From positions 4,300,705 to 4,364,704 of the forward strand of contig CAXXLX010000001.1 in NCBI GenBank assembly GCA_963665235.2: 64,000 nucleotides of DNA. Direction: 5' to 3'. Shown piece by piece: positions 7,185-59,770 of the stretch; position 1 is the stretch's first letter, and each line of letters opens with the position of its first letter. The position numbers were made by a program, and so were the translations under genes. The stretch comes from Candidatus Poribacteria bacterium (GTDB lineage Bacteria; Poribacteria; WGA-4E; WGA-3G). Below the pieces are notes generated by a model. That model was not told where the DNA came from, made no database searches, and worked only from the letters and a program-made list of their open reading frames with translations.

Positions 7185-8297
7185 CTAGTTCGCTTCCCAT
7201 GGCGGTATGTCCCCAACTGGGGGTGGGGCAGGGAATCGGCTGGAGACATCGACCGGTTTTCGGAGCTCAGACGATTCAATAATCCGTTCGCAAACCTCTA
7301 GGACATGCCGAGCTTGGGCACCGTTGCAACGGGGTGCGCGATTGTTTCTAATTGCGTCTGCGAAATCGGCTACGCCTTTTCCCCAATCAAGTCCCGTATA
7401 TGCCTTCGCTGGAGAGGGTTCGTCTGTCCAGCTGGTTTTTGCTGTGAATTTTTTGATGCCGCGGCCATCATCGTGCGCCTGAATTGAGAATCCACCATGG
7501 GTGCCATGTATCTCATAAGGCGGAATGTGTGAGGTTACGGTGAAGCTGTGATAGATAAATCCATGGGCTGCTTGCGCTTCCGGTTGGTCAAATTCAAGGA
7601 CAGCAAACCCGTGGTCCTTTTCAGTCACCTCAAATTCGGTACCTTGACGCGGGCCTTGGTGTAATGTCCGCTTAGGGACAGCAACTCTGGCAAATCCGTG
7701 AACTGTCTTCACAGGTGCAATCATCGTTGTCATTGCGGTTAAGGGATAAGGGGCAACATCTCGAAATGGACCTGCATGTATCAAAAATGCGTCGGCATTT
7801 GGGTGCCAATATTCTAAGGGGCCCCCGAAGTTGCCAAGTGTTGAAATGACGGTCCCAATTTCGCCATCACGTATCCGTCTCCAGACGTTCTGCTGGACGT
7901 ACCCAAGTATGGCGGAGGGGGCACACGCTAATTTCAATTCCATAGCTTCGGCGGTTTCGACGAGTTCGTTGGCTTCATCGGTGCGGATAGAAATCGGTTT
8001 CTCTGAATAGACATGCTTTCCGGCTTTCAAGGCTGCAAGCGAGATGGGATAATGTGAGATGTGGATGGTCAAATTGACAATTGCTTCTACGTTTGCATCC
8101 TCTAGAACGGCTTCAAAGGATGGATAGACTTTTCCACCGTTTCTCTCAGCGAGTGCTGATGCCCGTGCTTTGTCCTGGTCATAAAAGCCGACCAATTCGA
8201 TATGGTTTGGATATGCTTGGCAGCGGGGCTGATAACCGCCAGCTGCAATCATGCCGCATCCGACAATAACGGTTCGGAGCGGGGTTGTATTAGCCAT
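7185..8297 (-). CDS. Gfo/Idh/MocA family oxidoreductase
   Basis: IVGCGMIA Rossmann motif and GKHVYSEKP. Confidence 0.9.
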   Translation of the reverse strand: MANTTPLRTVIVGCGMIAAGGYQPRCQAYPNHIELVGFYDQDKARASALAERNGGKVYPSFEAVLEDANVEAIVNLTIHISHYPISLAALKAGKHVYSEKPISIRTDEANELVETAEAMELKLACAPSAILGYVQQNVWRRIRDGEIGTVISTLGNFGGPLEYWHPNADAFLIHAGPFRDVAPYPLTAMTTMIAPVKTVHGFARVAVPKRTLHQGPRQGTEFEVTEKDHGFAVLEFDQPEAQAAHGFIYHSFTVTSHIPPYEIHGTHGGFSIQAHDDGRGIKKFTAKTSWTDEPSPAKAYTGLDWGKGVADFADAIRNNRAPRCNGAQARHVLEVCERIIESSELRKPVDVSSRFPAPPPVGDIPPWEAN

Positions 8298-8408
8298 TTT
8301 GCTTCTCCTTTTTTTTAGTCCTATACAGCATACCAGTTTTTCAACTAGAGGTCAAGAAGAAAATTAGCTCACTAGCGATTGGCAAGATGTTGTGATTCTA
8401 ATGAGGAA

Positions 8409-8549
8409 CAAGACTTACGCAGCGCGTTGATAAATCCTTCTGATAGTGGGATTTAGAGGGAGTCCTAGCGGGCGGGGGGACCCCGCCCAGAGGAGCGGGA
8501 AACTGTTTGCCCGAATACTGAGGGGCCTGCTAAATTTGCGTAAGTCCTG
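8409..8549. mobile_element. MITE family B with TIR CA(A/G)GACTTACGCA
   Basis: caagacttacgca at 8409 and tgcgtaagtcctg at 8537-8549; another end, caggacttacgcaaattt, at 53400. Confidence 0.6.
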
Positions 8550-8558
8550 ATTATGTTA

Positions 8559-8738
8559 TACCATTTTTATTAATTATTCTATCATTACCGGTTGTTGGAA
8601 ATGAAACGGAGAACGGAAGACACAAACTGGAAGTTTATGCTACGATAAAGAACACAAACTGGAAGTTTATGCTACGATAAAGAACACAAACTGGAAGTTT
8701 ATGCTACAAGAAAGAGACATTTTCAATTAGAAATGGTA
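8559..8738 (-). mobile_element. MITE family A, inverted, with three internal 32-bp units
   Basis: TACCATTT...AAATGGTA ends flanked by TTA/TAA; reverse complement of the other copies. Confidence 0.85.
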
Positions 8739-8810
8739 TAACTAGTCATAATGGGATGGAGGCTGCCTGAGGAATATCGGCAGCCTCTTCTGATTTGTAA
8801 CCGAACTTAA

Positions 8811-8952
8811 ACTCTGGGTCGAGAGAGTGTGTTATCATAATGATTAGGTCGCAGGTTCGAGCCCTGCCAGCAGTCTGAGCATGTGTCATGTGAAGCCTAC
8901 TGTAGCTCAGTGGAAGAGCAAATCAAAATGCATTCCAATCCTTATCCAGAGT
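8811..8952 (+). ncRNA. YrlA-like Y RNA copy 1 (tRNA mimic)
   Basis: Terminal stem ACTCTGGGTCGAG / CTTATCCAGAGT with Ro-binding GGNCGA motif; T-arm GCAGGTTCGAGCCCTGC, then a closed acceptor-like stem CAGCAG..CTACTG, then D-arm TAGCTCAGTGGAAGAGC (permuted order as in YrlA); upstream of a Ro60 gene. Confidence 0.85.
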
Positions 8953-8961
8953 CGCATTTGT

Positions 8962-9036
8962 GCGGGCCGAAGTATTGTGTTATCCTCCGTTTACTCTCGG
9001 GGCCGGAATCCCGAGCGCAATACACACCTTGTCCGC
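8962..9036 (+). ncRNA. Short Y RNA (YrlB-like) copy 1
   Basis: GCGGGCCGAAG ... CTTGTCCGC Ro-binding stem with bulged C; inner stem GTATTGTG/CGCAATAC. Confidence 0.8.
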
Positions 9037-9058
9037 CATGAAGAAATATTTTTTTAAT

Positions 9059-9088
9059 TTGACAACAGACACCTAAATGTGATATAAT
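9059..9088 (+). promoter_or_regulatory. Sigma70-type promoter upstream of Y RNA pair 2
   Basis: TTGACA-18 nt-TATAAT with an extended -10 TG. Confidence 0.6.
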
Positions 9089-9090
9089 AA

Positions 9091-9240
9091 CCCAAGTTGC
9101 TACTTATAAGTTTTTAGACCTGGAAACACCGTCTTTAATGAAAATATGCTGATAATTAGCTAATATTTGTCCGGTTCACTTCCAATTCGCACACAAATAT
9201 GCACAATCTGGAAGATTATGCTACTATGTGGCAACTTAGG
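9091..9240. mobile_element. MITE family C (150 bp, TIR CCCAAGTTGCTAC / GTGGCAACTTAGG)
   Basis: Near-identical second copy at 36411-36560; lone end at ~16133; AT-rich flanking duplication. Confidence 0.85.
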
Positions 9241-9326
9241 TTATAATATATAATTGCTGTATGAAAATGGATGTGCGCTGCCTAAGAAATATTGGCAGAG
9301 CCTCCTGATTCGAAGCCCAACTTAAA

Positions 9327-9453
9327 CTCTGGGTCGCGAGAGTGTGTTACCCCAGCGCAGGTTCGACTCCTGCCAGTAGACCAAGCTTCATGCGAAGCCT
9401 ACTGTAGCTCAGTGGTAGAGCAAAACTTCAACGCATTCTGTTCTTATCCAGAG
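9327..9453 (+). ncRNA. YrlA-like Y RNA copy 2
   Basis: CTCTGGGTCGCG / CTTATCCAGAG stem; T-arm GCAGGTTCGACTCCTGC; CAGTAG..CTACTG; D-arm TAGCTCAGTGGTAGAGC. Confidence 0.85.
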
Positions 9454-9463
9454 CCATATTTGT

Positions 9464-9521
9464 GCGGGCCGAAGTATTGTGTTATCTTTGAAAGAGCATT
9501 CGCAATACACATCTTGCCCGC
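9464..9521 (+). ncRNA. Short Y RNA (YrlB-like) copy 2
   Basis: GCGGGCCGAAGTATTGTG ... CGCAATACACATCTTGCCCGC. Confidence 0.8.
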
Positions 9522-9569
9522 CACCGATTTATAACTGAAGAATTTAAGGTGAAAATATAGGGAGGAACA

Positions 9570-9947
9570 ATGAAAACGTTTTCGATACAAACACTTATCG
9601 CGCTATTCCTCATCAGCGGCATACATTTTGTTTTCGCAGATTGTCCTGATGAGCAACTAAAGGCTGAAGGTTCGTTTTTCATCAATGAAGCGGATGAGGC
9701 CTATATCTACGGGCAGGCTTCAGTAAGCAATCTCACCTATTGGCCCGCCAAGAACATTGAGCAAGCCCATTGGCCCGCCCTTCTCTTTAAGAGAGCTTAG
9801 ATTAGTAGTGACCACTCCGTCAGTTGCTGGCACTACTATGAAAAAGAAAAAGAGACTTTCACCGTTTATTGGGCATACCGGCTGGTTGTCGATGAGGATG
9901 CACGGTATCAGGCGAATCCGCGATATGGTCCTATGATTCTGCTGTAG
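9570..9947 (+). pseudogene. Secreted hypothetical protein with an in-frame TAG at 9798-9800
   Basis: GGAGG SD and signal peptide; the frame stays open for 48 more codons after the TAG and ends next to the SD of the following gene. Confidence 0.5.
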
Positions 9948-9958
9948 GAGAAAAAACA

Positions 9959-10933
9959 ATGCGCACCCTTTTTATTATCAGCATACTCTTCATCAGTATC
10001 GTGCCCGTTGCCTCCGCAAAAATCGTGTGGATGGCGTTCTGGGAAATCTGTGTCATGGACGATGATGGCAGCAACCGCCAAAGATTGACACATAATGATC
10101 GCTATGACACGAAACCACGCTGGTCACCCAATGGAAAGTGGATCGTTTTTCAGGGCGAACAACCTAAGGAAACCAATGAACAAAATCATGATCTGTTCCT
10201 CATGAATATAGATGGAACACAGATACGGAAACTTACCACCTACACAGGGCTTGATGTAAATCCAGACTGGTCCCCCGATAGTCAACACATAGTCTTTACA
10301 AGTACGCGAGGTGATGTGACGAGTCTTCATATCCTGGATGTTGAGACACAAGATGTCCGCGACCTCACGCGCACCCTAAAGGGGCAGGCCGCGGATAGCG
10401 CGGCTTGGTCTCATGATGGGAAACAGATTGCCTATGTAGGCAAGACTCTAAACCCCTTCACATCCGCCATCTACATCATAGGGGCAGATGGTAAAAACCC
10501 ACGTGCCCTCTTCCGCCCCGTGGTTGCACAGTACCATTCTCCCGACTGGTCGCCGGATGGGAAACATATTCTGTATGGCGAAAAAAAAGCCGTAGGCAAA
10601 ATGCGGATTTCAGATAAAATCGTCATTCGCACCGTTAATGGGAATTTGGTAAAGGAATTAGAAATGCCGGCGCTTGCGAAATGGTCAATACAAGCCGCTT
10701 GTTGGATGGGGACGAAACATGTTCTCATTGATGCCATAGAAGACTTCAAAGCCGCTGATGGGGGGCAGAGTGATATCTATCGGTATACACTATCCACCGA
10801 TGAAATCGTCAATCTCACGAAATCAGATAGAACTAACGACGGTTTTCCGGATTGGATAGATGATGGGGCACTAGCTGTTTCTCCTGTGAGCAAACTCGCC
10901 ATCCGATGGGCACAACTCAAGCAAATCCATTAA
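9959..10933 (+). CDS. Secreted TolB-like (PD40 repeat) beta-propeller protein
   Basis: PRWSPNGK, PDWSPDS and PDWSPDGK repeats; C-terminal AVSPVSKLAIRWAQLK motif. Confidence 0.85.
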   Translation: MRTLFIISILFISIVPVASAKIVWMAFWEICVMDDDGSNRQRLTHNDRYDTKPRWSPNGKWIVFQGEQPKETNEQNHDLFLMNIDGTQIRKLTTYTGLDVNPDWSPDSQHIVFTSTRGDVTSLHILDVETQDVRDLTRTLKGQAADSAAWSHDGKQIAYVGKTLNPFTSAIYIIGADGKNPRALFRPVVAQYHSPDWSPDGKHILYGEKKAVGKMRISDKIVIRTVNGNLVKELEMPALAKWSIQAACWMGTKHVLIDAIEDFKAADGGQSDIYRYTLSTDEIVNLTKSDRTNDGFPDWIDDGALAVSPVSKLAIRWAQLKQIH

Positions 10934-10955
10934 GACAGTATCACAACTAAGAAGG

Positions 10956-11399
10956 TTGATTAACAGTAGCAAAAAATCTGTGTTTTTCAGAACATAAGCT
11001 TATGTTACTAAACCTTTTAGGCAATTAAACGTCTAAATTAATGTTTTACATCTGAATGTTCCGCGTTGTGAGTTGTGTTACTTAAACACCATGTACAGAG
11101 TGCTTAGCGGGCATCCGCCCAATGTTTGCCTGGGTGGGCACAACCTCTGACAACGAAAGTAGCGAAAACCAAGCTTTGATGGAAATAGCAGGCGGAAATT
11201 GTGATAAAAACCTGCTTGGTAGTGTGACTTCGAAGCACGTAAAAAACATCGAACCTTCACAGAAGAAGCAATAAGCGTTCGCTGCCTTGTGTAGCGAACT
11301 TTGGGAGATGACCCCTGGCTGTATTCGTACAGCTTGCAAAACGTGTGTGGAAGTGAAATACATAGTATTCCACGGAAATATACAGTTTAATATCATCGG
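10956..11399 (+). mobile_element. ORF-less ~444-bp structured element, copy 1 (putative non-autonomous IS607-like)
   Basis: Second copy at 11782-12718; both begin (A)TTGATTAACAGTAGC after GG and end ATATCATCGG; covarying hairpins between the copies. Confidence 0.7.
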
Positions 11400-11504
11400 T
11401 AACTGATGCCAACACTCACCCAACTGCGCGATGATGCGTTTTCAGCGTCCCAAGAGGCACATAACCGCATGAAACGGGAGATGGCTATCTACAAAAATGA
11501 ACTT

Positions 11505-11636
11505 AATTCTGGGTCGCGGGGATGTGTTACCGGGTCGCAGGTTCGACTCCTGCCAGTAGACCGAGCGTCATGCGAAGCCTACTGTAGCTCAGTGGTAGAG
11601 CACAATATTCAACGCATTCTGTTCTTATCCAGAATT
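11505..11636 (+). ncRNA. YrlA-like Y RNA copy 3
   Basis: AATTCTGGGTCGCG / CTTATCCAGAATT (compensatory change relative to copies 1-2); same T-arm, acceptor-like stem and D-arm. Confidence 0.85.
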
Positions 11637-11642
11637 TTATTT

Positions 11643-11730
11643 GGCGGGCCGAAGTCCTACGTTAACTGCCCGTATAGTAATACACAAAGTGTATCTATAC
11701 TTAAATATCGTAGTACACACCTTGCCCGCT
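11643..11730 (+). ncRNA. Short Y RNA (YrlB-like) copy 3
   Basis: GGCGGGCCGAAGTCCTACG ... CGTAGTACACACCTTGCCCGCT. Confidence 0.8.
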
Positions 11731-11781
11731 GCCTTAAAAAAACGTTAAAAATATAAACCAAACTTAAACTCTGGGTCGAGG

Positions 11782-12718
11782 ATTGATTAACAGTAGCAAA
11801 AAACCTCTATTTTTCTAGGAACATAAGCTTATGTTCCTAAACCTTTTTGAGAACTTGACATACTCTCCCAGCTAAAGCAAGGGAGATTCTTTTAAAAAGT
11901 TCCGCTACGCGTTAGCTATTGGATTGTGGTTTTCAGACGTGTGAACGTCAACGGAGATGCTTGGGCTGTTCCAAGTCTTACTGCCCCTAACTCAAAGGAA
12001 TGCCCTTCGTGCTTCGCACCTTCTTTATGCGTTGTGAATCAGTGCTTTGGTATCCAATGCAGCATGACCCGTCTTTTGGATACCGAAAGCATTGCACAAA
12101 AATGTGGATATTGACTGGGTATCGCCAGAACATCAGCACACAACCCTACCATAGGTTGAGGTTCGGAACTTCAACATTGGTGGCGTTGAAGGTGGTAATC
12201 CGAACCACTGATGATATATATATTATACCACATTTTAATGCAAAAGTCAAATTAAAATTTTAGCTCATGCGCCGCTACTACATCCCCCAGCTAAAGCACG
12301 GGGGTTTTGTAGCGGAAGACTTGATAAATTTATGTTTTTAATGTTTTACATCTGAATGTTCCGCGTTGTGAGTCGTGTTACTTAAACACCATGTACAGAG
12401 TGCTTAGCGGGCATCCGCTCAATGTTTGCCTGGGTGGGCATGACCTCTGACAACGAAAGTAGCGAAAACCAAGCTTTGATGGAAATGAGAGGGCAAAGAA
12501 AACGTGAAAAAACCTCTCTGGTAGTGTGACTTCGAAGCACAATAAAAACCTCGAATATTCACAGTATAAGCGTTCGTTGCCTTGTGTAGCGAACTTTGGG
12601 AGATGACCCCTGGCTGTATTTATACAGCTTGCAAAACGTGTATGGAAGTGAAATACCTAGTGTTCCACAGGCTTCAGGCTACAAGCCTGCTCTTCAATAT
12701 ACAGTTTAATATCATCGG
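11782..12718 (+). mobile_element. ORF-less structured element, copy 2, inserted in Y RNA 4 and carrying a nested MITE
   Basis: Colinear with 10956-11399 once 11855-12323 is removed. Confidence 0.7.
11855..12323 (-). mobile_element. Non-autonomous IS200/IS605 derivative (no tnpA or tnpB) with promoter and omega-RNA-like 3' end
   Basis: Both ends nearly identical to those of the TnpB element 58362-59770 (TTAT|CAA..AAAA-hairpin left end; GAAT-hairpin..TCAA right end); TTGACT-17-TATAAT at 12250-12222. Confidence 0.85.
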
Positions 12719-12823
12719 CGCACATCATCGGAAGCAAGCAGGTTCGACCCCTGCCGGCGCACTTGTGTTTGACGCGCAAGTTTGCCGAGCAATGTCCGCT
12801 GTTTCTTATCCAGAGACACATTT

Positions 12824-12890
12824 GGCGGGCCGAAGTCCTACGTTAACCTATATTTATCCCATATAACCCGTAGGACACACCTTGCCCGCT
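12824..12890 (+). ncRNA. Short Y RNA (YrlB-like) copy 4, directly upstream of rsr
   Basis: GGCGGGCCGAAGTCCTACG ... CGTAGGACACACCTTGCCCGCT. Confidence 0.8.
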
Positions 12891-12910
12891 ACATTTCAAA
12901 AGGTGACATC

Positions 12911-14557
12911 ATGAGCTATTTAGGGAAATATTCTCCATTGCATCCACATCAGCGGCAGCCGTTGGACGAAAAACAGGTCCAAAATTCTGCCGGCGGATAC
13001 GCCTATCCTGTCTCTATCTGGACAAACTTAGACCGGTTTCTCATTTTAGGGACCGAAGGCGGCTCCTATTACGCCACAGAACAGGATTTGACGAAGGTCA
13101 ATGTCGATGCTGTCAAGCAGTGCATTGCCGAGGATGGGGTTCAAGTTGTTGAGCGGATACGTGAGATTTCTGTCTCCGGGCGCGCCCCGAAAAATGACCC
13201 CGCATTATACGCACTAGCCCTTGCCTTTACCCATGGCGATACGGCAACGAAACGAAAAGTGGAAGAGGTCTTCTGTGATGTCGCACGTATCGGCACACAC
13301 CTATTCAACTTTGTGGTGTTTGTAGACGGTATGCGTGGCTGGGGCAGGTCGCTACGCCGATTAGTCGGCAACTGGTACCGCACGAAGGACGATAACACCT
13401 TGGCGTATCAGGTCCTGAAATATCAATCTCGGAACAGTTGGCGGCATGCGGATGTCCTTGCAAAGTGCCACTACGGTGAAAACCGGGGCATCTACCGTTG
13501 GATAAAAGGGCTTGACACGGATAAGCGTATTGTGCATCGCACCCTACAAAATGAAGAAAAGACAGCTACCGTTTACGAGGCCACCGACGCTTTGCCTGAA
13601 TTGCTCGCCGGATATGAGGACCTGAAACGCACAGAGAAACGCGTGGATGTTATCCAGCTCATTGAGAAACATCAATTCACCCACGAAATGGTGCCGAACG
13701 AGTGGAAAAATGAAACGGAAGTATGGGCGGCGTTGCTACAGAACATGCCCGTTATGGCAACGGTGCGAAACCTCGGTAAGATGACGCAAATCGGGTTGTT
13801 GAAACCTTTTGGAGCAGAGGTTCAAACCGTGCTAGAAAGACTCTCCGCTGAGGCGATTCAACGTTCGCGCATCCATCCTATCCAAATCCTTATGGCGTTG
13901 ATAACATACAAGGCAGGTAAGGGAGTGAGAGGCAGCTTAACCTGGGAGCCCGTGCCGCAGATTGTTGATGGGTTGGACGCTGCGTTTTATATGGCGTTCG
14001 ATAACGTTGAACCGAGCCAAAAGAACACGCTCCTAGCACTTGATGTCTCTGGGTCAATGGCAGGCAGAACTGTGGCAGGATGTGAAGGCTTAACACCGCG
14101 TAATGCGTCCGCTGCCATGGCACTCGTAACCGCACGCACGGAACCGCATTATCATATCTTCGGGTTTTCAGAAGGTTTTGTGACCCTGCCGATTACAGCA
14201 AACGATACGTTGGATAGTGCTATTAAAGCTGTCTCTGGATTGCCCTTTGATGGCACCGATTGCGCTCTCCCCATGCTGTATGCATTGGAACATAAACTAC
14301 AGATAGACACCTTCGTCATCTATACAGATAATGAAACGTGGTATGGCGACATTCATCCGAAAACAGCATTGGACAACTATCGGCAAAAGATGGGGCGACC
14401 CGCAAAGTGTGCTGTTGTCGGGATGGTGGCGAACGACTTCTCTATCGCTGACCCAGAGGATGCGGGCATGCTCGATTTTGTCGGGTTTGATACCGCTACA
14501 CCTGCATTGCTCAGTGATTTCGCTAAAGATGCAGACATCTCCGATGAAACGGCGTAA
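12911..14557 (+). CDS. rsr: Ro60-related TROVE domain RNA-binding protein (Rsr)
   Basis: NSAGGY, LDRFLILGTEGGSYY, RGWGR, KYQSRNSWRHAD TROVE motifs; vWA MIDAS DVSGSM, GTDC, YTDNETW; ATG 12911 with AAAGGTGA SD. Confidence 0.95.
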   Translation: MSYLGKYSPLHPHQRQPLDEKQVQNSAGGYAYPVSIWTNLDRFLILGTEGGSYYATEQDLTKVNVDAVKQCIAEDGVQVVERIREISVSGRAPKNDPALYALALAFTHGDTATKRKVEEVFCDVARIGTHLFNFVVFVDGMRGWGRSLRRLVGNWYRTKDDNTLAYQVLKYQSRNSWRHADVLAKCHYGENRGIYRWIKGLDTDKRIVHRTLQNEEKTATVYEATDALPELLAGYEDLKRTEKRVDVIQLIEKHQFTHEMVPNEWKNETEVWAALLQNMPVMATVRNLGKMTQIGLLKPFGAEVQTVLERLSAEAIQRSRIHPIQILMALITYKAGKGVRGSLTWEPVPQIVDGLDAAFYMAFDNVEPSQKNTLLALDVSGSMAGRTVAGCEGLTPRNASAAMALVTARTEPHYHIFGFSEGFVTLPITANDTLDSAIKAVSGLPFDGTDCALPMLYALEHKLQIDTFVIYTDNETWYGDIHPKTALDNYRQKMGRPAKCAVVGMVANDFSIADPEDAGMLDFVGFDTATPALLSDFAKDADISDETA

Positions 14558-22540: not shown

Positions 22541-22818
22541 GAAAAAACCCTCCCGTTCCAAAACTGGAGACGAGAAGGCTCTATAAGATTACCTTACCGT
22601 GGTACCACTCCAATTCCCGTTCTCATTTTTTCACTGAGAAAGGGCACTCTTGGGGATGCGATAACGGGCATCACACCGGCTAACCCTACACAACAACCCA
22701 TGCCTTCGGATTAGCAGCTCCAGGGCGACCTTCAGTCGGTAGCACTTGAGGAAACCTCTCAGCCTACGAATTTCCTTCTCTGACAAGCCGAGCCGACTTA
22801 CTCCTCCCCTTCAACGCT
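22541..22818 (-). promoter_or_regulatory. T-box riboswitch leader of ilvBNC (probable GUC Val specifier) with intrinsic terminator
   Basis: Minus strand: AGTA, AGAGA and GCTGAGA stem I motifs, GAAG-GTC-G specifier loop, CCGTTATC, T-box AATTGGAGTGGTACCACG, terminator CCTTCTCGT...ACGGGAGGGTTTTTT. Confidence 0.9.
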
Positions 22819-22872
22819 TTTTTTGTAAATTTAATTCAACGTGTTACTAAAAATTGTGTTTCCTTTTTTTAA

Positions 22873-58361: not shown

Positions 58362-59770
58362 CAAATCTTCCGCTACAAAACCCCCATGCTTTAGCTGGGG
58401 GATGTAGTAGCGGCGCATGAGTTGAAATTTTAATTTGACTTTTCCTGAAAAATGGGTTATACTCTATTTAATGCCTTAGCGGAGAATCTATAGACTTCTC
58501 CGCCCCTTTTTAGAGGCAGGTAGCAACTTTTCAAGGCAGGATACCCTTAGATGTATACCACAAAATACAAACTTTTTCGTGCCCCGCGTAATCGTAATCT
58601 CAAGCGTTTAACGTGGGTGGCCCATGATGTTTGGAACTATTTTTTAGGTTGGCAGCGGACGCGCTATTCTCTTGGTCTTGCGTATATGTCGCTTCCTGAG
58701 ATGTCGCGTGCCTTTACCGTCCTTAGGAACTCACATCCTGAAGTGTTTTCGCACTGGCGTGAGTTAGACTCTTGGGCGGCGCGTGATATACTGCGGCGTT
58801 TAGACACCGGGTATCAGCGTTTTTTTAAGTGTATTGCGAAGCGTCCGCCTAAGTTTCGTTCATGGCGCAAACCGTATTCATTCACAATGTCCCCCTCTGG
58901 CTATAGTTTCTATGGTGATAGGGTCCGTATAATGGAAAAACAATATCGGTTTAATCTAAGCCGCGAGATAGTAGGTAATATTAAGACAGTCACTATCAAA
59001 GCAGATAGCGTTGGTGACTTCTATATGTGTGTTGTAACAGATGACACCGTATCTGAAATCCTACCTAAGACGGGTAGTGCTGCAGGGTATGATTTCGGTA
59101 TCAAAACGATGTTCACCTGTTCCGATGGCACAGCCTATGCGTCTCCTGAGTTCTATAAAACCTCTATGGCGGATTTGTCTGTGGCACAACGTGCCCATGC
59201 TAAGAAAGTAAAGGGTAGCAACAACTGTGAGCGTTCCCGCTTAAATGTGGCGCGCAAACACCGTAAAATCAAGAGACAACGTGAAGACCACCATTGGAAA
59301 CTCGCGAAGCGTTTTGTGCATGAACAAGATCACCTCTGTTTTGAGACGTTGACTTTTGAGGGAATGAAACGGTTGTGGGGGTGTCAAGTTTCTGATATTG
59401 CGCCCTACTCGTTTCATCAAAAGTTGCAACATCAAGCGGTCAAACACGGTAAAGAGGTTCACTATATTGACCGTTTTGAACCGACTTCTAAGACTTGTAG
59501 CCACTGTGGACAGCGAAAACAGCAGCTGGACTTGTCTGTTCGTCAATGGTGTTGTTCTACTTGCCATCAGAAACATCATCGGGACGTTAACGCTGCCATA
59601 AATATTTTAAAGGTTGGGGCGTCAACCTTTGGATTAGAGGATGTCAGTCTTGCTATTGCGAGCAGCCCTCGCAGACTTCACCCGAAGTCTATACCCCACA
59701 ATCCGCACCAGAGAGCATGGGATTCACTTTCAAAAGAATCCCCCTTGCTTTAGCTGGGGGAGTATGTCAA
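58362..59770 (+). mobile_element. IS200/IS605 family (IS1341-type, tnpB only) element, target motif TTAT
   Basis: TTAT|CAAATC, AAAA guide + CCCCC..GCTTTAGC..GGGGG hairpin at left; GAAT + same hairpin + TCAA at right. Confidence 0.9.
58551..59753 (+). CDS. tnpB: RNA-guided endonuclease TnpB
   Basis: RuvC D (GYDFGI), E (CFETL), D (RDVNAAINI); zinc finger CSHC...CSTC; PPKFR. Confidence 0.92.
   Translation: MYTTKYKLFRAPRNRNLKRLTWVAHDVWNYFLGWQRTRYSLGLAYMSLPEMSRAFTVLRNSHPEVFSHWRELDSWAARDILRRLDTGYQRFFKCIAKRPPKFRSWRKPYSFTMSPSGYSFYGDRVRIMEKQYRFNLSREIVGNIKTVTIKADSVGDFYMCVVTDDTVSEILPKTGSAAGYDFGIKTMFTCSDGTAYASPEFYKTSMADLSVAQRAHAKKVKGSNNCERSRLNVARKHRKIKRQREDHHWKLAKRFVHEQDHLCFETLTFEGMKRLWGCQVSDIAPYSFHQKLQHQAVKHGKEVHYIDRFEPTSKTCSHCGQRKQQLDLSVRQWCCSTCHQKHHRDVNAAINILKVGASTFGLEDVSLAIASSPRRLHPKSIPHNPHQRAWDSLSKESPLL

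What the first reader, a model, noticed from the sequence alone, without database searches (positions are those of the whole stretch)
11855..12323. TnpB-less IS200/IS605 mini-element that appears to be a stand-alone omega-RNA transcription unit
Seen (minus strand): TTAT target motif; left end matching 58362-58460; near-consensus promoter TTGACT-17-TATAAT; a structured 5' region (CATCAG/CTGATG enclosing GGTTCGGA/TCCGAACC and CTTCAAC/GTTGAAG; GGTATCCAA/TTGGATACC). Next comes a segment resembling the 3' omega-RNA region of the tnpB element (GGGCATTCCTTTGAGTTAGGGGCAGTAAGACTTG...CCACAATCC vs GGGGCGTCAACCTTTGGATTAGAGGATGTCAGTCTTG...CCACAATCC), then the GAAT-hairpin-TCAA right end. The predicted guide is the flank GTTCTCAAAAAGGTTTAGGA. 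Inference: it could load a TnpB in trans, such as the catalytically intact one at 58551, and target its own empty site, i.e. uninterrupted copies of the host element. That would be a transposon-versus-transposon conflict.
Basis: partly seen in the sequence, partly recalled or inferred. Interest (0 to 1): 0.72.

Follow-up and report, generated by a model that had tools for sequence, protein, structure and literature searches.

The report
Gene-less transposon carrying guide RNA
This is one of nine copies of a protein-less miniature IS200/IS605 transposon that keeps its ends, a strong promoter and a TnpB-type guide-RNA scaffold, a kind of element already described, but it also carries a previously uncatalogued, strongly conserved folded RNA module at the start of its transcript.

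Summary
Window 11855-12323 (minus strand) is a 469-nt, ORF-less IS200/IS605 derivative. It has a TTAT target, a left-end hairpin, a TTGACT-17-TATAAT promoter, structured RNA, a 3' region homologous to the omega-RNA end of the genome's tnpB elements, and a right-end hairpin.

It is one of 9 copies at 8 sites, all 9 preceded by TTAT. Y1 TnpA genes and 9 intact copies of the 58551-type tnpB are present.

Elements of this kind (PATEs, or standalone omega-RNAs used in trans) are already in print. This scan has also recorded them before, once in another Poribacteria genome.

- The flank is a repeated Y-RNA-like unit next to a Ro60 gene.
- Its one paralog lacks TTAT and has 5 of 20 guide mismatches.
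- No TTAT-adjacent target with 3 or fewer mismatches exists for any of the 9 guides.
- The scaffold core is only 56% identical to that of the 58551 element, so trans-loading is unproven.
- No RNA data exist.

New here: the 5' structure is an ~84-nt three-way junction locked by a 7-bp pseudoknot. 29 of 34 pairs covary. It always sits at a promoter, is shared by PATE families with different scaffolds, occurs in 74 of 99 genomes of the family, and is absent from Rfam. Its function is unknown.

The parts
12324..12327 (-). TTAT target site / predicted TAM abutting the left end
   Evidence: All 9 of 9 mini copies and 10 of 10 full tnpB copies are preceded by TTAT.
12251..12323 (-). Left end with the subterminal hairpin CCCCC-GTGCTTTAGCT-GGGGG (12304-12284)
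   Evidence: 88% identical over 109 nt to the tnpB element's left end and 90% over 114 nt to the left end of a tnpA+tnpB element at C1:3153026.
12222..12250 (-). Sigma-70-type promoter: TTGACT, 17 nt, TATAAT with TG extended -10
   Evidence: 11 of 12 positions. The -35 is kept in 9 of 9 copies and the -10 is perfect in 8 of 9.
12131..12213 (-). 5' domain: a three-way junction (P1 CATCAG/CTGATG; P2 GGTTCGGA/TCCGAACC; P3 CTTCAAC/GTTGAAG; P4 CAACC/GGTTG) with a pseudoknot between the internal loop UUACCA and the P4 loop UGGUAG
   Evidence: A covariance model built without any copy of this family scores it 37.1 bits, E 2.6e-9 (hit = window 12130-12217). Covariation is shown.
12115..12128 (-). P5 hairpin CUGG-CGAUAC-CCAG directly after the 5' domain
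   Evidence: An equivalent hairpin follows the domain in other families and in relatives, for example GUG-CGAAAU-CAC and GGUG-UCAAUAC-CACC. This was read by eye, not counted.
12042..12097 (-). Middle hairpin (GUGC...GGUAUCCAA / UUGGAUACC...GCAC)
   Evidence: It is nearly invariant among the 9 copies, so no covariation test was possible.
11887..12012 (-). Omega-RNA-like scaffold (S1 hairpin, UUGAGUUAGGGGCAGUAAGACUUGG block, S2, S3 and S4 hairpins, CCACAAUCC at 11929-11921)
   Evidence: nhmmer hits to the 3' ends of 10 tnpB elements at E about 1e-12. Hairpins sit at equivalent places with different sequences. S1 has 3 pairs changed on both sides. In the window copy S1 is shortened by a deletion.
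11855..11886 (-). Right-end hairpin UCUCCC-UUGCUUUAGC-UGGGAGA plus the terminus GUAUGUCAA
   Evidence: The terminus is identical in 9 of 9 mini copies and 10 of 10 tnpB copies.
11835..11854 (-). Predicted guide (flank GTTCTCAAAAAGGTTTAGGA)
   Evidence: Inferred from its position relative to the right end. Each of the 8 insertion sites has a different flank. No second genomic target was found.
58362..59770 (+). Full-length tnpB element of the nearest family; tnpB ORF at 58551-59753 (400 aa)
10951..11373 (.).
   Evidence: At the equivalent site it lacks TTAT and differs from the guide at 5 of 20 positions.

Best explanation
The stretch is a non-autonomous IS200/IS605 element, a PATE (palindrome-associated transposable element). 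It has lost tnpB but keeps the two end hairpins, the left-end promoter and the guide-RNA (omega-RNA) scaffold.

Shown:
- Its anatomy.
- Its copy number and TTAT site preference.
- Homology of its 3' 158 nt to the omega-RNA ends of tnpB elements.
- Y1 TnpA genes in the genome whose elements carry near-identical left ends.

Inferred:
- TnpA supplied in trans excises and re-inserts it 3' of TTAT.
- The promoter makes a ~370-nt RNA that starts at the 5' domain and reads out past the right end, so its last ~16-20 nt are the flank.
- A TnpB made elsewhere binds the scaffold and re-cuts the empty TTAT+flank donor site after excision. Recombination with the sister copy then restores the element. [quoted passage not shown]

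The transcript's first ~84 nt are a pseudoknot-locked three-way junction. PATE families built on different omega-RNA scaffolds share it. It most likely serves the transcript itself rather than one TnpB. For an RNA that has lost the translated tnpB ORF, that could mean 5'-end protection or escape from premature termination. This last point is inference only.
For: Mobile-element status:
- 9 copies at 89-100% identity, 8 distinct flanks, 9 of 9 after TTAT, and identical termini.
- No ORF above 87 aa, no Pfam match for the three mechanical ORFs, and no tblastn TnpB hit inside the element.

Transposase in trans:
- PF01797 gives 13 matches, 12 over the cut-off.
- The tnpA+tnpB element at C1:3153026 has TTAT plus a left end 90% identical over 114 nt.

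Guide-RNA scaffold:
- A profile of the 9 copies hits the last ~158 nt of 10 tnpB elements at E 3.6e-12 to 2.3e-11, and more weakly four other tnpB families.
- The S1, S2, S3 and S4 hairpins recur at the same places with different sequences. Conserved blocks such as CCACAAUCC are shared.

Nuclease available:
- 9 of 10 copies of the 58551 family have a 400-401 aa ORF, and 10 of 10 follow TTAT.

Promoter: 11 of 12 consensus positions with TG.

5' domain:
- On 29 sequences, 96.8% of cells are paired and 29 of 34 pairs change on both sides.
- The pseudoknot, which was not in the model, has 5 of 7 pairs changed on both sides and is 97% paired. 0 of 500 shuffles reach the observed values.
- There are 57 G-U cells against 11 A-C cells, so the fold belongs to the promoter's strand.
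- 28 of 29 sequences have a -10-like hexamer 1-10 nt upstream.

The concept is in print. PATEs 'often encode omega-RNAs' to be used in trans (PMC10055086, passages read). [quoted passage not shown]
Against: - No transcript evidence. No RNA run holds the stretch, and the contig data cannot show RNA.
- The scaffold core is only 56% identical to the 58551 family's, 54% to another mini family's, and 50-51% to the tnpA+tnpB elements'. No closer tnpB-linked scaffold was found in 40 relatives. The cognate nuclease may therefore be missing and the RNA orphaned.
- The window copy has a deletion that shortens hairpin S1. Its 150-nt scaffold folds no better than shuffles (z -0.49, against -1.75 for copy m2 and -2.55 for the tnpB element).
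- The omega-RNA pseudoknot known from ISDra2 could not be identified here.
- No true empty allele of this site was seen. The one 'joint' in the read data is the paralog.
Confidence: 0.6

Rival explanations
1. The RNA, or at least its 5' pseudoknotted domain, has a job that does not involve TnpB. It could be, for example, a structured non-coding RNA cargo or a protein-binding RNA. In that reading the omega-like 3' part is only the price of keeping a functional right end.
For: The 5' domain is conserved with heavy covariation across genera and recurs with at least three unrelated omega scaffolds and end types in this genome. Some relatives carry promoter plus domain without recognisable IS ends, directly upstream of genes (L055 and L056). 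The scaffold has no close tnpB partner.
Against: 14 of the 19 relatives' loci read end in an IS200/IS605-type right-end hairpin. In this genome all 21 model hits lie in gene-less elements. Junction nucleotides are poorly conserved, unlike ligand-binding RNAs. The scaffold hairpins keep pairing through compensatory changes, which argues that the 3' part is also under RNA-level selection.
Confidence: 0.15
2. It is an inert deletion derivative: a MITE that TnpA still moves, whose promoter and RNA-like folds are leftovers with no present function.
For: The window copy carries a deletion in S1 and a 1-nt insertion relative to the other 8 copies. Degenerate copies exist at C1:1843775, C1:1298508 and C2:317210. 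The single-sequence fold of the window copy's scaffold is not better than shuffles.
Against: TnpA needs only the ends, yet the interior is the best conserved part among copies. Differences between copies fall mainly in hairpin loops. Copy m8's A-to-G change in the P4 loop adds a seventh pseudoknot pair. The promoter-plus-domain cassette is kept in 74 of 99 genomes of the family.
Confidence: 0.15
3. The element's main effect is as a mobile outward-facing promoter that drives or interferes with neighbouring genes.
For: The promoter is strong and transcription must leave the right end. In copy m5 and in one A-type element the right end abuts the ribosome-binding site and ATG of a gene. Here the read-out runs into the terminator-like palindrome of the convergent ORF.
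Against: The 8 sites have no common neighbouring gene or orientation. This effect would not explain conservation of 350 nt of structured RNA between the promoter and the end.
Confidence: 0.07
4. One reading: the guide directs TnpB against uninterrupted copies of a host transposon, a conflict between two transposons.
For: The flanks are repeated once nearby (89.6% over 222 nt).
Against: The repeat belongs to a cluster of Y-RNA-like units beside a Ro60 gene, not a transposon. The paralog has TTTA instead of TTAT and 5 of 20 guide mismatches, four of them in the first seven positions. Genome-wide, no TTAT+guide site with 3 or fewer mismatches exists for any of the 9 guides.
Confidence: 0.03

Closest known systems
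PATE-like minimal IS200/IS605 elements of Geobacillus stearothermophilus that encode omega-RNAs (Meers et al. 2023; preprint PMC10055086, passages read)
   Same: They are protein-less and keep left and right ends like those of co-resident tnpB/tnpA elements. They carry an omega-RNA that must use a TnpB encoded elsewhere, and TnpA mobilises them in trans.
   Different: The element here has a ~190-nt extra interior, including a covarying pseudoknotted 5' domain that begins about 4-8 nt after the -10 hexamer, where transcription should start. I saw no such module described in the passages read. The figures and supplements of that paper were not seen.
Standalone omega-RNAs of OMEGA systems (Altae-Tran et al. 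2021, as summarised in PMC10691335; passages read; the original paper was not read)
   Same: They are mobilised guide-RNA loci without an effector or transposase, in genomes that hold effector-containing loci. They are reported there to work in trans.
   Different: Trans activity is untested here, and the nearest tnpB-linked scaffold is only 56% identical.
IStrons and their ORF-less PATE derivatives (Zedaveinyte et al., bioRxiv 10.1101/2023.11.20.567912; passages read)
   Same: The architecture is a structured RNA module at the 5' side with an omega-RNA scaffold at the 3' end, inside IS200/IS605-type ends. Gene-less versions exist.
   Different: The 5' module here is not a group I intron. Rfam reports no group I intron match even at E up to 10. 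The element has its own promoter, so the module is the start of the transcript rather than a spliced insert in a host mRNA.
ISDra2 TnpB with its omega-RNA (PDB 8bf8, 8exa, 8h1j)
   Same: The 58551 protein matches it at E 1.2e-34 over residues 16-365. The guide lies 3' of the scaffold, outside the right end.
   Different: The omega-RNA sequences are not alignable by eye. The triplex and pseudoknot of the solved RNA could not be mapped onto this scaffold.

Membership tests
Non-autonomous IS200/IS605 element (PATE) | Subterminal imperfect-palindrome hairpins at both ends, like those of a co-resident autonomous element | tested here: met
   The left-end hairpin at 12304-12284 and the right-end hairpin at 11886-11864 share the core GCTTTAGCTGGG with the tnpA+tnpB elements. 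The left end is 90% identical over 114 nt.
Non-autonomous IS200/IS605 element (PATE) | No protein-coding gene | tested here: met
   The largest mechanical ORF is 87 aa. There are no Pfam matches and no TnpB tblastn hit inside the element.
Non-autonomous IS200/IS605 element (PATE) | Insertion 3' of a fixed tetranucleotide without target duplication, at several loci | tested here: met
   9 of 9 copies follow TTAT. There are 8 distinct flank pairs and no flanking direct repeat.
Non-autonomous IS200/IS605 element (PATE) | A Y1 (HUH) TnpA in the same genome able to act in trans | tested here: inconclusive
   The genes are present (13 PF01797 matches) and sit in elements with matching left ends. However, those elements end in TCTATCAC rather than GTATGTCAA, and activity was not testable.
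Non-autonomous IS200/IS605 element (PATE) | Demonstrated mobility (filled versus empty site) | tested here: inconclusive
   No empty allele of this site was seen. The only joint in the read data is the paralog. The 40 relatives searched lack both the element and this flank, except for the Y-RNA-like part.
TnpB omega-RNA (guide RNA) | A scaffold at the 3' end overlapping the right end, on the tnpB sense strand, homologous to that of tnpB-bearing elements | tested here: met
   nhmmer gives E about 1e-12 to 10 tnpB elements. The hairpins are colinear and S1 has compensatory changes.
TnpB omega-RNA (guide RNA) | The same TAM / target motif as the nuclease's own element | tested here: met
   TTAT is found in 9 of 9 mini copies and 10 of 10 copies of the 58551 family.
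TnpB omega-RNA (guide RNA) | Transcribed, with a 3' guide taken from the flank | not testable with these tools
   Only a promoter prediction exists. No RNA run is listed.
TnpB omega-RNA (guide RNA) | Bound by a TnpB and directs TAM-dependent cleavage | not testable with these tools
   The scaffold core is only 50-56% identical to any tnpB-linked scaffold in the genome.
Any Rfam 15 family (for the 5' domain or the whole RNA) | A score at or above the family's gathering threshold | tested here: not met
   The window scan found only a T-box elsewhere. At E up to 10 over 11700-12500 there were only HgcC (16.3 bits against a threshold of 50) and sRNA41 (18.4 against 45). Seven sister elements gave only spurious hits.

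The most novel reading that the evidence does not exclude
The promoter plus the pseudoknot-locked three-way junction could be a dedicated, exchangeable 'guide-RNA launch module'. It would have evolved in gene-less IS200/IS605 elements of this phylum (probably Poribacteria) to replace what the translated tnpB ORF used to provide.

It would make an untranslated ~370-nt transcript survive, through 5'-end or exonuclease protection or resistance to premature (Rho-type) termination, long enough to deliver a guide to a TnpB made elsewhere.

That would be a new class of cis-acting RNA element attached to transposon guide RNAs. It would also explain why the same module sits in front of at least three unrelated omega-RNA scaffolds.
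Probability: 0.3. Interest if true: 0.6.

Novelty: new variant of a known kind. Interest (0 to 1): 0.4.

Why it matters
The element itself adds one more example to a known class. Gene-less IS200/IS605 offshoots that keep a guide RNA show how transposon guide RNAs and nucleases can be uncoupled.

The part worth a specialist's attention is the 5' domain.
- It is a compact RNA fold with unusually clean covariation.
- It sits at the predicted start of the transcript.
- It is found in most genomes of one bacterial family, with 30 or more scored hits in some.
- It is combined with several different guide scaffolds.

If it stabilises or protects untranslated guide transcripts, it would show how orphan guide RNAs are kept alive in cells. 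It could also be a portable natural part for expressing TnpB guides. If it does something else, it is an unassigned RNA family that deserves a name.

Tried and rejected
- **RNA evidence.** The look-up of sequencing runs listed no RNA holder. Read laying on X1, X2, X3 and X5 gave contigs only. Interior depth was about 200 against about 22 for the flanks in X1-X3, which fits about 9 copies. X5 (organism B) holds the element but not these flanks. The joint 11847>12338 with 19 letters between is the paralog, not an empty site.
- **Rfam.** Nothing at gathering score. The weak HgcC and sRNA41 hits were rejected as below threshold.
- **tRNA-like reading of the 5' domain.** ARAGORN found nothing in 8000-14000.
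- **Self-cleaving ribozyme or riboswitch readings.** No Rfam match, and junction nucleotides are not conserved. Rejected as unsupported, not disproved.
- **Parent tnpB element with this scaffold.** None was found in the genome or in 40 relatives. An exact 23-nt degenerate pattern found nothing in JGI metagenome contigs. The fragment at C2:317210 is a broken mini copy, not a parent.
- **RNAalifold on the scaffold alignment.** It recovered only S1, S2 and the right-end hairpin, because MAFFT put S3 and S4 out of register between families. I did not quantify S3 and S4 covariation.
- **Omega-RNA pseudoknot.** I tried to pair the UUGRRUUAG block with CCACAAUCC by eye. The pairing is not consistent across families, so I dropped it.
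- **MAFFT alignments A2-A4 of the 5' domain.** They misregistered P1 and P3 for the window's family. I replaced them with a model-based alignment (then 39 and 61).
- **Paper searches.** Searches for TnpB with PATE, orphan, standalone or Poribacteria returned no paper on such a 5' module (listings and abstracts only, beyond the three papers whose passages were read). bioRxiv supplements are closed and PMC supplements were not opened, so a description there could have been missed.
Full report
**What is there**

On the minus strand, window 12327-11835 reads in this order:
- TTAT.
- A left end with the hairpin CCCCC-GTGCTTTAGCT-GGGGG.
- A promoter: TTGACT, 17 nt, TATAAT, with a TG extended -10 (11 of 12 consensus positions).
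- About 350 nt of hairpin-rich sequence.
- A right-end hairpin, UCUCCC-UUGCUUUAGC-UGGGAGA.
- The terminus GTATGTCAA, ending at 11855.
- The flank GTTCTCAAAAAGGTTTAGGA.

The largest ORF inside is 87 aa. None of the three mechanical ORFs has a Pfam match. A tblastn search with the window's TnpB finds nothing inside the element.

**It is a family, not a single oddity**

The genome is 5.3 Mb in 4 contigs and holds 9 full-length copies at 89-100% identity.
- All 9 follow TTAT and all end in GTATGTCAA.
- They occupy 8 different flank pairs. Two copies share flanks because contig C3 is a ~99% variant of part of C1.
- Degenerate copies lie at C1:1843775, C1:1298508 and C2:317210.
- Read depth in three runs of the same organism fits about nine copies. 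A second organism's run holds the element but not these flanks (contigs only).
- The full-length element was not found in 40 relatives.

**Relation to the tnpB element at 58362-59770**
- That element has 10 full-length copies plus two partial or diverged ones.
- 10 of 10 follow TTAT, and 9 of 10 keep a 400-401 aa ORF.
- The protein has OrfB_IS605 and Cas12f1-like TNB domains. It matches ISDra2 TnpB at E 1.2e-34. In the printed alignment (to an AI-designed nuclease related to it, the top hit), the acidic residues of the three RuvC motifs (recalled from ISDra2 TnpB) align.
- The mini-element shares its left end (88% over 109 nt) and its last 43 nt (93%) with this element.
- A nhmmer profile of the 9 mini copies matches the last ~158 nt of the 10 tnpB copies at E 3.6e-12 to 2.3e-11. 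It matches the ends of four other tnpB families more weakly.
- The aligned scaffolds show hairpins at the same places with different sequences. Examples are S1 AGGGCA/UGUCCU against AGGUUG/CAACCU, and S3 GACGU/ACGUC against AGACUUC/GAAGUCU. They also share blocks such as CCACAAUCC. S1 has three pairs changed on both sides.

The 3' part is therefore an omega-RNA-type scaffold by descent.

**Limits of that conclusion**
- Outside the right-end hairpin, the scaffold core is only 56% identical to the 58551 family's. It is 54% identical to another mini family's and 50-51% to that of the tnpA+tnpB elements. No tnpB in the genome, or in the 40 relatives searched, is linked to a close match.
- The window copy has a deletion that shortens S1. 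Its 150-nt scaffold folds no better than shuffles (z -0.49, against -1.75 for copy m2 and -2.55 for the tnpB element). The whole predicted RNA gives z -2.61.
- I could not place the pseudoknot known from the solved ISDra2 RNA.
- No RNA data exist.

**Transposase**

Y1 TnpA (PF01797) gives 13 matches, 12 of them over the cut-off. Three tnpA+tnpB elements have TTAT plus left ends of the same type, up to 90% identical over 114 nt. Their right ends share the hairpin core but finish in TCTATCAC. Mobilisation in trans is likely but not shown.

The flanks of this copy are repeated once, about 0.8-1.3 kb away (89.6% over 222 nt). The neighbourhood is not a transposon.
- It holds three sub-threshold Y-RNA-like (YrlA) matches, the best at 36.4 bits and E 1.9e-5 against a gathering score of 69.
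- It lies directly upstream of a Ro60/Rsr gene with TROVE and vWA_Ro60 domains.
- The Y-like part is conserved at 74-79% in 9 of 9 genomes of one related genus.

At the equivalent site the paralog reads TTTA|ATTGCCTAAAAGGTTTAGTA. It has no TTAT and differs from the guide at 5 of 20 positions (1, 4, 5, 7 and 19). Across the genome, none of the 9 guides has a TTAT-adjacent 16-nt match with 3 or fewer mismatches. The only plausible target is the element's own empty donor site, which is the published homing role.

**Already known**
- Altae-Tran et al. [quoted passage not shown]
- Earlier notes of this scan describe the same kind of element in another Poribacteria genome and in several archaea and a phage.

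**What is new: the 5' domain**

- P1 closes a three-way junction.
- A long arm (P2-P3) carries a 7-nt internal loop.
- A short arm (P4) has a loop that pairs with that internal loop.

The same architecture, with different sequence, follows the same promoter in other gene-less families of this genome. Those families have different ends and different omega scaffolds. Each scaffold type matches a different tnpB lineage in the genome.

Covariation on 8 sequences from those other families:
- 97.4% of cells pair.
- 14 of 34 pairs change on both sides.
- 5 of 7 pseudoknot pairs change on both sides.
- 0 of 500 shuffles reach the observed values.

A covariance model built from those 8 sequences, with no pseudoknot in it, was then searched with filters off. 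It scores the window's copy at 37.1 bits, E 2.6e-9.

Covariation on a model-based alignment of 29 sequences (10 from this genome, 19 from relatives):
- 96.8% of cells pair.
- 29 of 34 pairs change on both sides.
- The pseudoknot keeps 97% pairing, with 5 of 7 pairs changed on both sides.
- Slid controls fall to 34-49% pairing.
- The nested helices lean towards the model by construction. The pseudoknot does not.

Further properties:
- G-U cells outnumber A-C cells 57 to 11, so the fold belongs to the transcribed strand.
- 28 of 29 sequences have a -10-like hexamer ending 1-10 nt upstream, most often 4 nt. 22 of 29 have a -35, and 18 of 29 have TG. The fold therefore starts at the predicted 5' end of the RNA.
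- Junction nucleotides are poorly conserved.

**Distribution of the domain**
- This genome has 21 hits, all in gene-less elements.
- The second model, built on 29 sequences, found it in 74 of 99 genomes of the family, 1 of 10 and 5 of 26 in two other families, and 0 of 15 in six more.
- A strict promoter-plus-domain pattern hit 2 records among 185,579 species' genomes. Both are titled Candidatus Poribacteria.
- Rfam 15 has no matching family.
- Of the 19 relatives' loci read, 14 end in an IS200/IS605-type right-end hairpin. 5 do not, and of those L047, L055 and L056 have a gene after the domain (read by eye).

**How it most likely works**

TnpA in trans moves the element to TTAT sites. The promoter fires and the RNA begins with the locked three-way junction. 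It continues through the middle hairpins and the omega scaffold, and ends in the flank. A TnpB made elsewhere would use it to re-cut the vacated site.

Because one 5' module serves several scaffolds, it probably acts on the transcript rather than on a particular nuclease. A gene-less element has lost the translated ORF that normally precedes the scaffold. Protection of the 5' end, or escape from termination of an untranslated RNA, is therefore a reasonable role. This is inference, and no tool here could test it.

**Verdict**

The element belongs to a known kind. The conflict hypothesis is rejected. Trans-loading by the 58551 TnpB remains open. The conserved 5' module is a new and well-supported RNA motif of unknown function.

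Noticed in passing
window 8843-8925, 9356-9421, 11507-11637 (+); ORF 12782-14557 (+): A cluster of repeated units gives sub-threshold Rfam YrlA (Y RNA-like) matches. The best is 36.4 bits against a gathering score of 69, E 1.9e-5. Each unit has a T-arm-like segment followed by a D-arm-like segment. The cluster lies directly upstream of a Ro60/Rsr gene (TROVE + vWA_Ro60). It is probably a multi-copy Y-RNA locus, and the mini-element sits inside it.
   Followed up: partly
window 11816-11839; also inside the left ends of mini copies at C1:1018746, 1772468, 3109150, 3342445, C3:14458, and the degenerate copy C1:1843776: The 24-nt perfect palindrome TAGGAACATAAGCTTATGTTCCTA lies just outside this copy's right end and scores as terminator-like on the plus strand. 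It shares 20 nt with a variant left end carried by five other copies and one degenerate copy. The 16-nt core occurs only 8 times in the genome. How flank sequence and a left-end variant came to match is unexplained.
   Followed up: partly
window 22563-22823 (-): A T-box leader at 110.1 bits (gathering score 93).
   Followed up: no
G000 C1:490757-491347 and C1:1891807-1892350: A further gene-less family (~590 nt) has the same TTAT, left-end and right-end type and promoter. Its 5' three-way-junction-like domain and middle region are different.
   Followed up: no
G000 C1:3108740 (copy m5) and C1:185197 (A-type element): The right end abuts a ribosome-binding site and ATG, so the element's outward transcription could drive the neighbouring gene.
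   Followed up: no
L045 and L048 (relatives; domain at ~1501-1578): These loci have the promoter, the 5' domain and an omega-like RNA, but no right-end hairpin. They end just before a gene start. They may be immobilised, possibly recruited, copies.
   Followed up: no
G000 C1:892400-893400, C1:470000-470412, C2:317354-317560; window 8620-8715: Tandem arrays of a ~23-32-nt unit interrupt or follow several of these mini-elements. Examples are GATGTCCTCGGTGGGACC repeats inside an A-type element and a 32-nt ACACAAACTGGAAGTTTATGCTACGATAAAGA array.
   Followed up: no
G000 contig C3 against C1:999349-1032654: C3 is a ~99% variant of a C1 region. The mini copy at the shared site differs mainly by two indels in scaffold hairpin loops, while 1,200 nt of flank differ at 5 positions. 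This suggests fast loop turnover or conversion between copies.
   Followed up: partly
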